From the human T2T-CHM13v2.0 reference genome, Homo sapiens: a DNA stretch of 64,000 nucleotides. The translations under genes were made by a program, and so were the position numbers. The stretch is from NCBI RefSeq assembly GCF_009914755.1, contig NC_060929.1; one strand, written 5' to 3'. The notes beneath the pieces were generated by a model. The model was given only the letters and a program-made list of their open reading frames with translations. It was not told the DNA's origin and made no database searches. Positions 6,301-9,300 of the stretch are shown here, piece by piece. Every line of letters starts with the position of its first letter. The stretch's first letter is position 1.

Positions 6301-9300
6301 GGTCAAGTGGAGGACGAGGAGCTCACAAAGGAGACAGAAAGGACGTCAGAGGGGCAGGCAAGACATCTGGAGAACATGGCACTCCCCTTGCCCTTTCCTG
6401 CCTGGCTGAGGACAGAGGAGCCCAAAGACAATGTGTGAAAAGGACAAACACAAATGCCAGATATTCTCTAGTGGACTAACATGATGGGAACAGCAGAGGA
6501 GGATGGATTTGGCAACAAAAAAGTCACCGGTGACTCTGGAGAGGGTGTGGGTAGAAAACCGCCTGCAATGAGCTAATGGGTGGAAGGGAAGACAGTGAAT
6601 GCAGACATCATTTTTCAAGAAGTGTGGCTGTGATGAGAGGAAAGAGGCTGGGGAGGGGTTGAGAGAGAGGTAACAGGCTCAAGGAGCAGTTTGCTTCCAA
6701 AAAAGAGAATGGTGGACACAATGAAATGTGGACGGGAACAGCATGGAGGAGAGGCTAAGCTAGACCAGGAGCCTGCTGCTGGGCTGAGGGGTCAAGAAAG
6801 TACCGCACAGGCCTTAGGCGGGAAAAGGGTGACTCTCATGACAAGGAAGAAAGTAAGTTTGCAGGTGGGAATGGCAAAACAGTGGGAGAATCCCTGTATA
6901 ATGGCTTTTTTCCTCATTGAAATAAAAAGTGAGGCTATTTGCCAAAAAATAAGGTGTGGGCTCGGAAGGCCTAGCGGTTTGAGAAGACTGGAGGCCTGAC
7001 AGAAGGACTGTGGGGAATGGACGTGCTAAGGTACAGGAAGCCCAGGGAACCATGAGAGGCCCGCCTGGCGACACGGGAACTCGGCAATCGGGAGCCCACG
7101 TGGCTGGCTGCCACAGATTCACTCATGTGCTTTTCTTGAGCTGTAGAAAGGGAGAGCCAGGCTGGGGTGGAACCCAGGGCTGCAGTGTTTCTGAGTGGGT
7201 CTGAAGGAAAGACAGCGGGACAAGGAATTGAGTACTGGTGAGTGAGTGAGTGAGTGATGGGTCAATTTGCCTGCCCTCCTACCAATACTTAGCAATGCTT
7301 ACTCCATTCAAGTGAGTGAGAAACGGATTGACCTGGGAAGAAGAGAACGGGGCAGGAGAGTCTTCAGTGGATGTGGAGGAGTGGCAGGAGGTCACAGATG
7401 ACAGAGCCAGGGGTGCAGTTTTTAAGAAGCAGGGTGTCTCTCTGCTCCCTTCTCCCACTGTCAGCCCATGACTCTCTCACCTTCGTGTAGACAGAAGACA
7501 CAAAGACAAGGTGAGAGTGTCACGGGCTGGCAGTGGGAGAAGGGAGCAGAGAGACACTGAGCTCTTTCCATTTCCTGAGGCGGGAGAGAAGGAGCAGCTG
7601 GGCTTTGGTGGAGAGCCAGACTGTGAAGTCCAGGAGGTGGAAGGAGACAAGGGAGGAGGCTGCTGTCTACAGAGATAATGACCATAATCACTTGATGCAT
7701 CACGCTGCCACTGTGTGTCTGTCCCTGCCTGCAGCCCCACGACTAAGTCTGGAAAGGCAGGGCTGCCTGGTTCTGCCTGGGCCTGCCAGACAGGAGCTGT
7801 GCAGTGTGGGATGAGTGAGCAGAGCCTCCAGATATATGAGGTAGGTTGGGAGTACAGTGGAAGTTACCCAAGGATGGCTATGAAGGAGGAAACAGCTGAA
7901 CTGAACTTGGAAGGAAAGTTTGTCAGAAGAAAAGGTGAGAGAAGATAGCATTATCAGTAAAGGGGAAGAGACATCTGAGCACACATATTTACGAAAAGCA
8001 CATCAGACTTGGGAACTGCCGGATGTGCTCTCTGGGGACCTAACTGGGAACCACTGTCCTAAGAAGCCAGGAAAGGCCAGAGACTACTGCAGCCCACTGA
8101 ACCTTTCTGGCTAGGTGACTGCATGGGAGAAAGACAGTGCTGACCACCTTCAGAAGGCAGCGGTGGGACCCCTTGGCTCACTACTTCAGGCGGCGGGAGA
8201 AGGATCCTGGTTGTCCTTGGGGCTGAAAAAGGATGGTGAATCACTTCTGCTTTCCAAAGCACTAGGGCTGTTTGACCACCCAGGAACTGGAACTAGCTGG
8301 TTGTTACACCCAAATCTCTTCGGATGCTGGGCTCCTAAACGTGTCACTGTGCAGATGCAGTTGGGAGTAGGCAGGTGAAGAGGTAAAGAAGCCACAAGGG
8401 ACAAGCCATCAAGCTCTGGGGCTCATCTGGCAGGAGGGCTGCCGAGGAATAGATCACCAGGTTCTGTCCTCAGTCCCGAGGCCTGGTTCATTCCCCTGGC
8501 TTCAATTACATCTCTGCGCTGGTAAATGCTAGCCCTGCACTTCTCCACTTAGATGTCTCACGGGAACCTTCGAGTCAACATGCCTCAACTGAATTCACTG
8601 TCTTCTGCAAATCCCATCCTGGCTCAGTGAAAGGCACCACCATCTTGCTGGTCACCAAGCAAACACCTGGGAGACATCCCTGCCTCCATCTCCCTCTCCT
8701 GCCATCAGATCAAAGGCCCATCACTTCAGCTTCCTCTGAAAATCCCTCTCTTCTTCTCTGGCCCCACAATCAATCATCTCTCCCTTGGCCTGCGTTTCCT
8801 GCCTGAGGCATCGAACTCGAGGTCTTCCTGCCTGGAATCCTCCAAGCTACCTTCCATTTGGCCACGGCATAATCTTAGGATGCAGGTGTGACCAAGTGCA
8901 TGCTTTGATTAAAACCCTCAGTGACTTCTCTCACCGGTAGGATAAAGCCACAGCTCTTCCGCAGGGCCTCAGAGGCCCTCCCTCAACAACACTGTCCATC
9001 CTGCCTCTCTTCTGCTCAGTTTTGGCTGTCAAGCTGCTGTGGAATGTGCCGTGCCTGCTGCCAGGAGGGCCCTCCTGAGGAGTCTGTACTCACAGTCAGC
9101 CTCTTGTAAAGCCATTTCCAGGCAGGATGGGGGACTTCCCTCATCCCAGTACTTGTCACATGCTAATATGCTTGTCCAGTTTTGTGTCAGTCTCCCCACT
9201 GGACAGCTTCTTCTGGGTGAGAACTTAACTGTGTCACACTTTGGCTGCCAGTATTTGTAGAAGTGTTTGCTGAATGAATAAATGACTGACTGAAGCAAGT

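What the first reader, a model, noticed from the sequence alone, without database searches (positions are those of the whole stretch)
7434..7557. 50-bp non-Alu RNA hairpin that buries a 5' splice site in FAM193B intron 6
Seen: arm 7434-7483 pairs with arm 7508-7557 at 47/50 Watson-Crick pairs around a 24-nt loop. In the minus-strand pre-mRNA the three exceptions are one G-U wobble, one A-C and one A-A. The 5' arm is the body of a candidate exon and the 3' arm begins with its donor (AAG|GTGAGA at 7481/7480), so the whole U1 site is base-paired. A stem of this length with a short loop is unusual outside transposon pairs. Inference: a structural switch that suppresses a poison exon and can be opened by ADAR editing, helicases or dsRNA-binding proteins, or cut by Microprocessor. 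Together with the exon, this is the best candidate for an undescribed regulatory system here.
Basis: partly seen in the sequence, partly recalled or inferred. Interest (0 to 1): 0.8.

Follow-up and report, generated by a model that had tools for sequence, protein, structure and literature searches.

The report
Solitary inverted duplication hairpin, FAM193B intron
A real, single-copy 50-base-pair hairpin in a FAM193B intron buries a splice-donor-like motif, but it looks like a one-off inverted duplication that created the motif already masked, not a proven regulatory switch.

Summary
Arms 7434-7483 and 7508-7557 pair at 47/50 around a 24-nt spacer. The sense RNA folds at -106 kcal/mol, z = -14. 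The three exceptions are A.C, G.U and A.A, as stated. The hairpin is single copy in its genome. It reaches no Rfam family threshold. It is the only complex, non-Alu inverted repeat in 264 kb.

The donor-like AAG|GTGAGA is fully paired. Inclusion of the 94- or 46-nt pseudoexon would frameshift FAM193B.

The "switch" reading has no support. The plus strand around the hairpin is purine-rich, and arm 7434-7483 is a unique pyrimidine island. That arm therefore looks like a reverse-complement copy of 7508-7557, and the donor was created already paired. The same acceptor/donor layout sits on the antisense strand, by symmetry. Modelled ADAR editing does not open the stem.

Best reading: a primate-age template-switch-type inverted duplication, a documented source of intronic hairpins (PMC10710096), that passively silences a by-product pseudoexon. 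Conservation, editing, CLIP and junction data could not be examined.

The parts
7508..7557 (-). 5' arm of the RNA hairpin in the FAM193B pre-mRNA and probable source copy of the duplication. It is pyrimidine-rich in the RNA, contains the inner acceptor-like CAG| (exon would start at 7526), and ends in CUCUCACCUU, the complement of the donor.
   Evidence: Inverted repeat I1. Its plus-strand purine fraction of 0.76 fits the purine-rich surroundings. Pair probabilities are about 1.0.
7484..7507 (-). 24-nt spacer. In the MFE fold part of it forms an extra 6-bp apical helix with a 9-nt terminal loop.
7434..7483 (-). 3' arm of the RNA hairpin and probable derived (reverse-complement) copy. It begins with the donor-like AAG|GUGAGA (exon/intron boundary at 7481/7480).
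   Evidence: Donor match of 8/9. Plus-strand purine fraction of 0.22, against a mean of 0.607 (SD 0.106, minimum 0.32) in 1975 neighbouring 50-nt windows. Donor unpaired probability at most 0.024.
7481..7574 (-). Predicted 94-nt pseudoexon (alternative 46-nt version 7481-7526). It is unannotated, has no in-frame stop, and shifts the frame by +1.
   Evidence: Acceptor-like sites with 17/18 and 16/18 pyrimidines at -20..-3. Frame and premature stop. The upstream acceptor region 7575-7597 has a mean unpaired probability of 0.66.

Best explanation
This is a solitary short inverted duplication. A 50-nt stretch of the purine-rich plus strand (7508-7557) was copied in reverse complement 24 nt away, giving 7434-7483. 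The simplest mechanism is a replication template-switch mutation. The event probably dates to the primate lineage, and three point changes have accumulated since.

Because FAM193B is transcribed through it, every pre-mRNA carries a hairpin of about 50 bp that forms as soon as the second arm is made. The donor-like AAG|GUGAGA is simply the complement of a pre-existing CUCUCACCUU. It was therefore created already base-paired, next to pyrimidine-tract/CAG acceptor-like sites that were already there. The result is a good-looking frameshifting pseudoexon that is silenced passively and constitutively.

Shown: the structure, its single-copy status, the compositional polarity, the burial of the donor and the frameshift. 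Inferred: the template-switch origin, the age, neutrality and the silencing.
For: - The repeat is real and far beyond chance.
- It is single copy. Four queries against the window's own genome (the 144-nt hairpin, a 1.2-kb flank, and each arm with its flank) hit only themselves and the opposite arm.
- Complementarity stops abruptly at the arm ends: 9 of 30 in-register matches beyond them. Reading, no flanking direct duplication is visible.
- Polarity: within +/-1 kb the plus strand has a mean purine fraction of 0.607 (SD 0.106). None of 1975 50-nt windows outside arm 1 falls below 0.32. Arm 1 is 0.22 and arm 2 is 0.76.
- The three arm differences are two transitions, one of CpG-to-CpA type, and one transversion, as expected for neutral decay. 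K = 0.0625 gives about 31 My at 1e-9 per site per year (Poisson 95% range 6-88 My; the rate is recalled).
- The same acceptor-like / 46-nt / donor-like layout is present on the antisense plus strand, so it follows from symmetry.
- Strong decoy donors are common: 15 sites at 8/9 or better in 32.8 kb of the gene, of which 4 are annotated and 11 are decoys. Six of the 11 decoys have an acceptor-like partner.
- Precedent (PMC10710096, Results and Discussion read): template switching creates whole perfect hairpins in one event. That paper infers events of 28 and up to 83 bases, and 53,666 genic events on the primate-to-human lineage. Of those, 31,007 form a new RNA stem, and only 0.9% of the miRNA-sized ones are annotated miRNAs.
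- Prior from PMC11838218: over 99% of predicted human dsRNAs have phastCons below 0.5.
Against: - No outgroup sequence could be examined, so the before/after states that define a template-switch event are not shown. The polarity rests on composition alone.
- The object is locally rare: it is the only complex non-Alu inverted repeat with arms of at least 20 nt in 264 kb.
- Its pseudoexon has the best acceptor-like sites of the 11 decoys (17/18 and 16/18 pyrimidines, against 14-15 for the others).
- If the duplication is much older than the arm divergence suggests, 47/50 retained pairs would point to selection on pairing.
- PMC10710096 reports template-switch events depleted in genes, introns included.
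- Arm 2 has no significant direct similarity to its flanks (33 of 500 and 127 of 500 shuffles score as high). The claim that arm 2 is native rests on base composition, not on alignment.
Confidence: 0.6

Rival explanations
1. One reading: a regulated structural switch. The hairpin normally hides the donor of a poison exon. Helicases, dsRNA-binding proteins or ADAR open it under some conditions, so that FAM193B output is tuned through NMD.
For: - The donor and the inner acceptor are buried while the outer acceptor is accessible.
- Inclusion gives a premature stop 818 nt before the next junction.
- Its splice-site-like motifs are the best among the 11 decoys.
- It is locally unique.
- There is precedent for stems that mask unused 5' splice sites in wild-type introns (PMC1935003, abstract) and for the MAPT exon 10 and SMN2 exon 7 stems (PMC11802352, passages).
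Against: - No listed exon lies at 7481-7574 in the hub table of 22 transcripts (5 exons are not listed there).
- The motif layout is mirrored on the antisense strand.
- The donor-bearing arm looks like the derived copy, so no selection is needed.
- The stem is -106 kcal/mol against -9.6 for U1 pairing. Modelled editing of all 22 A leaves the donor unpaired probability at 0.009.
- The partner arm is transcribed first, which favours immediate folding (inference).
- The known regulatory stems named above are recalled to be short and marginally stable, which is what lets them be tuned. This one is not.
Confidence: 0.07
2. A processed hairpin: an unannotated proto-miRNA or endo-siRNA precursor, or a Microprocessor or ADAR substrate whose processing matters (small RNAs, or cleavage of the host pre-mRNA).
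For: - It is an intronic, sense-strand, very stable hairpin.
- 28 of 29 Rfam matches at E of 10 or less in 6400-8600 overlap it, and 25 of those 28 are to miRNA precursor models.
- Template-switch hairpins are a documented source of young primate miRNAs (PMC10710096).
- A 50-bp duplex with an A.C mismatch is a plausible ADAR substrate (established knowledge).
Against: - No Rfam match reaches its gathering score (best 55.0 bits against 96). The matches fall on both strands and spread over unrelated plant and animal families, so they are generic long-hairpin matches.
- No MIR gene appears in the hub's RefSeq table.
- The stem is 50 bp (56 with the apical helix), against the preferred 35 bp (PMC10710096 introduction).
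- Only 0.9% of suitably sized template-switch hairpins are annotated miRNAs.
- A 17-nt core of the purine-rich arm occurs in no searched paper text.
- 12 of the 22 stem adenosines have a 5' G, which ADAR disfavours (recalled).
- Only 4,597 of about half a million non-repetitive predicted dsRNAs are edited on both arms (PMC11838218).
Confidence: 0.1
3. A relic of a miniature inverted-repeat DNA transposon, with the two arms as its terminal inverted repeats.
For: The general shape fits: two inverted arms, a short interior and sharp outer ends.
Against: - No other copy was found in the 3.1-Gb genome with four queries at E up to 10.
- The 8 bases on either side of the arms do not match each other.
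- The arms differ by only 6%, so a family young enough to explain that should have left recognisable copies (inference).
- Caveat: the search scores only the best candidates and skips common words. No Dfam or RepeatMasker library was on hand.
Confidence: 0.05
4. An ancient, conserved RNA or DNA structure with another role, for example a dsRBP platform, an intron-processing signal or a cruciform-forming element.
For: It has extreme stability as RNA and as DNA and is locally unique.
Against: - Conserved human dsRNAs are reported as the least stable, shorter class. Only 1,502 predicted dsRNAs have phastCons of at least 0.9 (PMC11838218).
- The compositional island and the CpG-decay type difference point to a duplication followed by neutral decay.
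Confidence: 0.05

Closest known systems
Template-switch-mutation (TSM) hairpins of primate genomes (Monttinen, Frilander & Loytynoja 2023, PMC10710096)
   Same: [quoted passage not shown] Its 50-nt length lies within that paper's inferred events (28 and up to 83 bases). A few substitutions have accumulated since the event.
   Different: The stem is longer than the miRNA-sized class the paper focuses on. The locus is not in the one supplement of that paper that is held as text; the other datasets were not visible.
RNA stems that mask unused 5' splice sites of intronic pseudoexons (ATM and CFTR; Buratti et al. 2007, PMC1935003), and the MAPT exon 10 and SMN2 exon 7 stems (PMC11802352)
   Same: A donor-like site lies inside a stem, so U1 access should be blocked. 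Disrupting the stem is predicted to expose a pseudoexon.
   Different: Those cases were shown by mutagenesis and structure probing, whereas this one is only predicted. Those stems are recalled to be short and tunable. This one is a 50-bp duplex at -106 kcal/mol that should be constitutively closed, and no use of the exon is known.
Splice-site-overlapping pri-miRNA hairpins and pre-miRNA-like exons (PMC3794580, PMC4006729, PMC6097652; only the search listing and abstract starts were seen)
   Same: A hairpin overlaps a splice site, which raises possible competition between the spliceosome and Microprocessor.
   Different: Those hairpins are annotated miRNAs or known Drosha substrates at real exons. 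Here there is no annotated miRNA, no annotated exon, and a stem about 15-20 bp longer than the preferred pri-miRNA stem.
Inverted Alu pairs in introns (ADAR-edited dsRNA)
   Same: Intramolecular dsRNA in an intron that could bind ADAR, DHX9 and other dsRNA-binding proteins.
   Different: This one is not repeat-derived, and it has much shorter arms and a 24-nt loop. The Alu-like pairs in the same 264 kb reach at most 33 nt at 90% or better without gaps.

Membership tests
Template-switch / inverted-duplication hairpin | Near-perfect inverted repeat with a short spacer | tested here: met
   47/50 complementary with a 24-nt spacer.
Template-switch / inverted-duplication hairpin | Unique sequence, not a dispersed repeat | tested here: met
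   Only self and opposite-arm hits in the own genome with 4 queries. Limit: only the best candidates are scored, and no Dfam library was available.
Template-switch / inverted-duplication hairpin | One arm is the native source and the other a reverse-complement copy | tested here: inconclusive
   Composition supports it: arm 1 has a purine fraction of 0.22 against at least 0.32 in all 1975 neighbouring windows, and arm 2 has 0.76. Arm 2 has no significant alignment to its flanks, and there is no outgroup.
Template-switch / inverted-duplication hairpin | Ancestral or outgroup sequence lacks the repeat, and the change is better explained by a reciprocal switch than by point changes | not testable with these tools
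   No other vertebrate genome is held. states that the genome has no relatives here.
pri-miRNA / annotated miRNA family | Match to a curated family at its gathering score | tested here: not met
   The best match is MIR6426 at 55.0 bits against 96. None of the 29 matches reaches its threshold. The gathering-level scan of the window finds only an SRP/Alu-type hit at 44074-44221.
pri-miRNA / annotated miRNA family | Stem of about 35 bp with an unstructured apical loop of at least 10 nt (criterion as quoted in PMC10710096) | tested here: not met
   The stem is 50 bp plus a 6-bp apical helix, with a 9-nt terminal loop.
pri-miRNA / annotated miRNA family | Precisely stacked reads of about 22 nt, with Drosha and Dicer dependence | not testable with these tools
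   No small-RNA or CLIP data are available.
MITE / DNA transposon | Multiple genomic copies | tested here: not met
   Searches find the locus itself only.
MITE / DNA transposon | Target-site duplication flanking the terminal inverted repeats | tested here: not met
   The 8 bases on each side of the arms differ (sequence). In-register matches in the flanks are 9 of 30.
Splice-site-masking regulatory RNA structure | Splice site lies within a stable stem | tested here: met
   Donor unpaired probability is at most 0.024. The inner acceptor region has a mean of 0.044.
Splice-site-masking regulatory RNA structure | The masked site belongs to an exon that is used in some condition | tested here: inconclusive
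   None of the exons listed in the hub table lies at 7481-7574, but 5 exons are unlisted and no RNA-seq junction data are available.
Splice-site-masking regulatory RNA structure | Disrupting and restoring the stem changes and restores exon inclusion | not testable with these tools
   This needs a minigene or ASO experiment.

The most novel reading that the evidence does not exclude
The duplication created a complete poison exon and its lock in a single mutational step, and the lock has since been co-opted. A nuclear dsRNA helicase or dsRNA-binding protein (for example DHX9, DDX5/17 or ADAR1 acting without editing) opens or holds the 50-bp stem in some cell states. FAM193B dosage is then set through inclusion of the 94-nt frameshifting exon and NMD. 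This would be a primate-specific, structure-gated autoregulatory module born from one template switch.
Probability: 0.06. Interest if true: 0.65.

Novelty: new member of a known kind. Interest (0 to 1): 0.3.

Why it matters
If the best reading is right, this is a clean single-locus illustration of how one template-switch event can create a strong splice-donor motif and its mask together. That is a caution against reading "a hairpin buries a splice site" as evidence of regulation.

There is also a practical side. A deletion or variant that removes or weakens one arm would expose a consensus-grade donor next to two strong acceptor-like sites. That would activate a frameshifting pseudoexon in FAM193B, so the locus is a candidate deep-intronic risk site and an easy minigene or ASO test case. 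If the switch reading were right, it would be a primate-specific dosage control of a poorly understood gene.

Tried and rejected
- Rfam, permissive scan: many sub-threshold matches to miRNA models on both strands. Rejected as family membership because these are generic long-hairpin scores.
- Rfam, gathering-level scan: nothing at the locus.
- Transposon or multi-copy origin: four own-genome searches found no other copy.
- Direct-repeat link between arm 2 and its flanks, as support for the polarity: not significant (33 of 500 and 127 of 500 shuffles score as high). Only the compositional argument is kept.
- Literature:
  - FAM193B with 'cryptic exon' gave 2 papers. Both mention the gene only in expression lists.
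  - FAM193B together with editing, ADAR, poison exon, NMD or DGCR8: none of the 25 papers listed, out of 7,257 holding at least 2 of the 6 terms, contains the gene name.
  - A 17-nt core of the purine-rich arm occurs in 0 papers.
  - FAM193B is absent from the one held supplement of PMC10710096.
- A wider base-rate sample from three other chromosomes could not be fetched, so the rarity estimate rests on 264 kb only.
- ADAR 'opening' of the stem: modelled and not supported when I is treated as G. With all 22 A forced unpaired, the MFE is still -37.9 kcal/mol.
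Full report
**1. The observation**

The window is T2T-CHM13 chr5:178,064,001-178,128,000, and the feature lies at chr5:178,071,434-178,071,557. The repeat finder reports arms 7434-7483 and 7508-7557, 50 nt each, 94% complementary, with 24 nt between them.

The three non-complementary positions are 7461/7530, 7468/7523 and 7473/7518.

The 144-nt sense RNA folds at -106 kcal/mol. 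Two hundred dinucleotide-preserving shuffles average -48.4 +/- 4.1, giving z = -14.0, and 0 of 200 fold as well. Part of the spacer adds a 6-bp apical helix with a 9-nt loop. The plus-strand RNA (-108.2 kcal/mol) and single-stranded DNA (-60.3 kcal/mol, z = -11.8) fold equally well, as a palindrome must.

In a 1001-nt context the stem dominates. Pair probabilities are about 1.0 for nearly all pairs, and they fall to 0.95, 0.80 and 0.34 only for the three loop-proximal pairs. Complementarity stops at the arm ends, with 9 of 30 in-register matches beyond them.

**2. How unusual it is**

Among inverted repeats in the window with 400 nt or less between the arms, 64 pairs were found, and this one is I14 of the 25 longest shown. 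The other pairs whose sequences were printed are Alu-type (my recognition of the Alu motif is recalled), (TA)n, or GC-rich repeats at the promoter.

I then fetched 100 kb on each side and ran an exhaustive ungapped scan of the 264 kb. The criteria were arms of at least 20 nt, at least 90% complementarity and a spacer of at most 100 nt. It returned 27 hits:
- this hairpin;
- 2 Alu-like pairs;
- 24 overlapping AT-rich low-complexity hits at two loci.

A wider sample could not be fetched.

**3. What it is not**

It is not a dispersed repeat. I searched the 3.1-Gb genome with four queries: the hairpin, a 1.2-kb stretch around it, and each arm with its flank. All hit only the locus itself and the opposite arm, even at E up to 10. 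The caveat is that the tool scores only the best candidates and skips very common words, and no Dfam library was available.

There is no flanking target-site duplication (sequence).

It is not a member of any Rfam family. In a permissive scan of 6400-8600, 28 of 29 matches overlap the hairpin. They fall on both strands, in unrelated plant and animal miRNA models, and all are far below gathering (best 55.0 bits against 96). That is what a long perfect hairpin scores against single-hairpin models. At gathering level the only hit in the window is an SRP/Alu-type match at 44074-44221.

The hub's RefSeq table lists no MIR gene in the window.

**4. Polarity of the duplication**

The plus strand around the hairpin is purine-rich. 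Within +/-1 kb, 50-nt windows have a mean purine fraction of 0.607 (SD 0.106), and none of the 1975 windows that do not overlap arm 1 is below 0.32. Arm 2 (7508-7557) is 0.76 and the spacer is 0.71. Arm 1 (7434-7483) is 0.22. In the whole intron only 0.2% of windows are as low as that.

One arm of any skewed palindrome must be an outlier. Here it is clearly arm 1, with purine-rich sequence on both sides of it (0.66 and 0.66 over 150 nt). I infer that arm 1 is a reverse-complement copy of arm 2.

An attempt to back this with a direct alignment of arm 2 to its flanks was not significant. The inference therefore rests on composition only.

The three differences between the arms are two transitions, one of CpG-to-CpA type in arm 1, and one transversion. 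That is a neutral-looking spectrum. K = 0.0625 gives about 31 My at 1e-9 substitutions per site per year (Poisson range 6-88 My), or about 62 My at 0.5e-9. The rates are recalled, not from a call.

**5. The splice-site-like motifs**

On the sense strand, AAG|GTGAGA (last exon base 7481) matches MAG|GTRAGT at 8/9. It is one of 15 such sites in the 32.8 kb of the gene inside the window. Four of those are annotated donors and 11 are decoys.

Under a crude rule (YAG, at least 14 of 18 pyrimidines at -20..-3, no AG in -14..-3), 6 of the 11 decoys have an acceptor-like site 40-300 nt upstream. The decoy at 7481 has two, and they are the best of the decoys:
- exon start 7574, 17/18 pyrimidines, giving a 94-nt exon;
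- exon start 7526, 16/18 pyrimidines, giving a 46-nt exon.

The upstream CDS is 1275 nt (phase 0). Either pseudoexon is open in frame and adds 1 nt modulo 3. The first stop then falls 203 nt into exon 6, 818 nt before the exon 6/7 junction. By the 50-55-nt rule (established knowledge) that predicts NMD.

The donor 9-mer has an unpaired probability of at most 0.024. The inner acceptor region averages 0.044 and the outer acceptor region 0.66.

**6. Why I do not read this as a switch**

- The same layout (pyrimidine tract-CAG, 46 nt, AAG|GTGAGAG) is present on the antisense plus strand, where it can play no part in FAM193B splicing. It is a consequence of palindromic symmetry in a pyrimidine-rich arm that ends in ...CTCTCACCTT.
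- If arm 1 is the derived copy (section 4), the donor came into being as the complement of a pre-existing sequence. It was born already paired, so masking needs no selection.
- Energetics. The U1 5' end pairs with the site at -9.6 kcal/mol, against a hairpin of -106 kcal/mol. The partner arm is transcribed first, so folding should be immediate (inference).
- ADAR. With inosine modelled as G, editing all 22 stem adenosines moves the MFE of a 224-nt context from -119.2 to -114.1 kcal/mol, and the mean donor unpaired probability stays at 0.009. At 25% or 50% random editing the maximum is 0.010. Only the extreme bound, with all 22 A unable to pair, breaks most of the stem (-37.9 kcal/mol). I.U pairs are weaker than G.U (recalled), so the truth lies between these bounds. 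Editing the A at 7461 would close the A.C mismatch. Twelve of the 22 adenosines have a 5' G, which ADAR disfavours (recalled).
- Microprocessor. The preferred pri-miRNA stem is 35 bp with a loop of at least 10 nt (PMC10710096 introduction). This stem is 50 bp (56 with the apical helix).
- No annotation or paper supports use of the exon (hub table).

**7. Best explanation and context in print**

Monttinen, Frilander and Loytynoja (PMC10710096; I read the abstract, Results and Discussion) show that replication template switching creates perfect hairpins in a single event. Their examples are inferred events of 28 and up to 83 bases.

They count 53,666 putative events in genic regions on the primate-to-human lineage. 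Of these, 31,007 form a new RNA stem and 6,054 are miRNA-sized, and only 0.9% of the last group are annotated miRNAs. In their set, 81 of 99 intragenic template-switch miRNA loci lie in the sense strand of an intron. They also report that template-switch events as such are depleted in genes.

Andrews and Bass (PMC11838218, preprint; sections read) predict about half a million non-repetitive dsRNAs of 25 bp or more, of which 4,597 are edited on both arms. Elsewhere the same text gives about 2 non-repetitive dsRNAs per Mb, which does not agree with the first figure. They also report that over 99% of predicted dsRNAs have phastCons below 0.5, and that the conserved ones are the least stable class.

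Masking of unused 5' splice sites by stems in wild-type introns is documented for the ATM and CFTR pseudoexons (PMC1935003, abstract) and for MAPT exon 10 and SMN2 exon 7 (PMC11802352, passages). Splice-site-overlapping pri-miRNAs and a pre-miRNA-like exon are in print (PMC3794580, PMC4006729, PMC6097652); I saw only the listing and abstract starts.

The feature therefore fits a known kind: an inverted-duplication (template-switch-type) intronic hairpin that passively masks a by-product pseudoexon. I put this at 0.6.

**8. What remains open**

No other vertebrate genome, no conservation track, and no RNA-seq, editing, CLIP or small-RNA data could be consulted. The age, the neutrality and the silence of the exon are therefore inferences. 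The supplements of PMC10710096 beyond the one held file, which list the genic template-switch loci, could not be seen and may already contain this locus.

The local rarity and the quality of the pseudoexon's sites keep a small probability (about 0.06) for a co-opted, helicase-gated poison exon.

**Verdict.** Novelty: a new member of a known kind. Interest: 0.3.

Noticed in passing
window 7434-7557, plus strand: The antisense (plus) strand carries the mirror image of the pseudoexon: a pyrimidine tract with CAG ending at 7464, then 46 nt, then AAG|GTGAGAG at 7508-7517. This shows that the splice-like layout follows from the palindrome itself.
   Followed up: yes
window 10649-10657, minus strand: A strong donor-like site AAG|GTGAGC (8/9) lies 45 nt downstream of the annotated, weaker donor of exon 10702-10900 (GCG|GTGAGT, 7/9). 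An in-frame 45-nt exon extension would be possible.
   Followed up: no
window 7238-7257 and 7312-7320, plus strand: A (GTGA)5 microsatellite, with a partial copy 74 nt downstream (family D1), lies about 180 nt from the hairpin.
   Followed up: no
window 44074-44221, minus strand: The only Rfam gathering-level hit in the window is Metazoa_SRP at 70.2 bits against a threshold of 70. It is most likely an Alu-derived sequence rather than an SRP RNA gene (the Alu reading is inference).
   Followed up: no
window 59094-59162, and about 119,611-119,939 in window coordinates (outside the window; locus L008): Two AT-rich low-complexity palindromic tracts, (TA)n and TATAA-type, account for 24 of the 27 short-spacer inverted repeats in 264 kb.
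   Followed up: partly
window 7330-7680, plus strand: About 350 nt of purine-rich plus strand (50-nt bins 0.60-0.76) surround the hairpin, which makes that stretch of the FAM193B pre-mRNA strongly pyrimidine-rich.
   Followed up: partly
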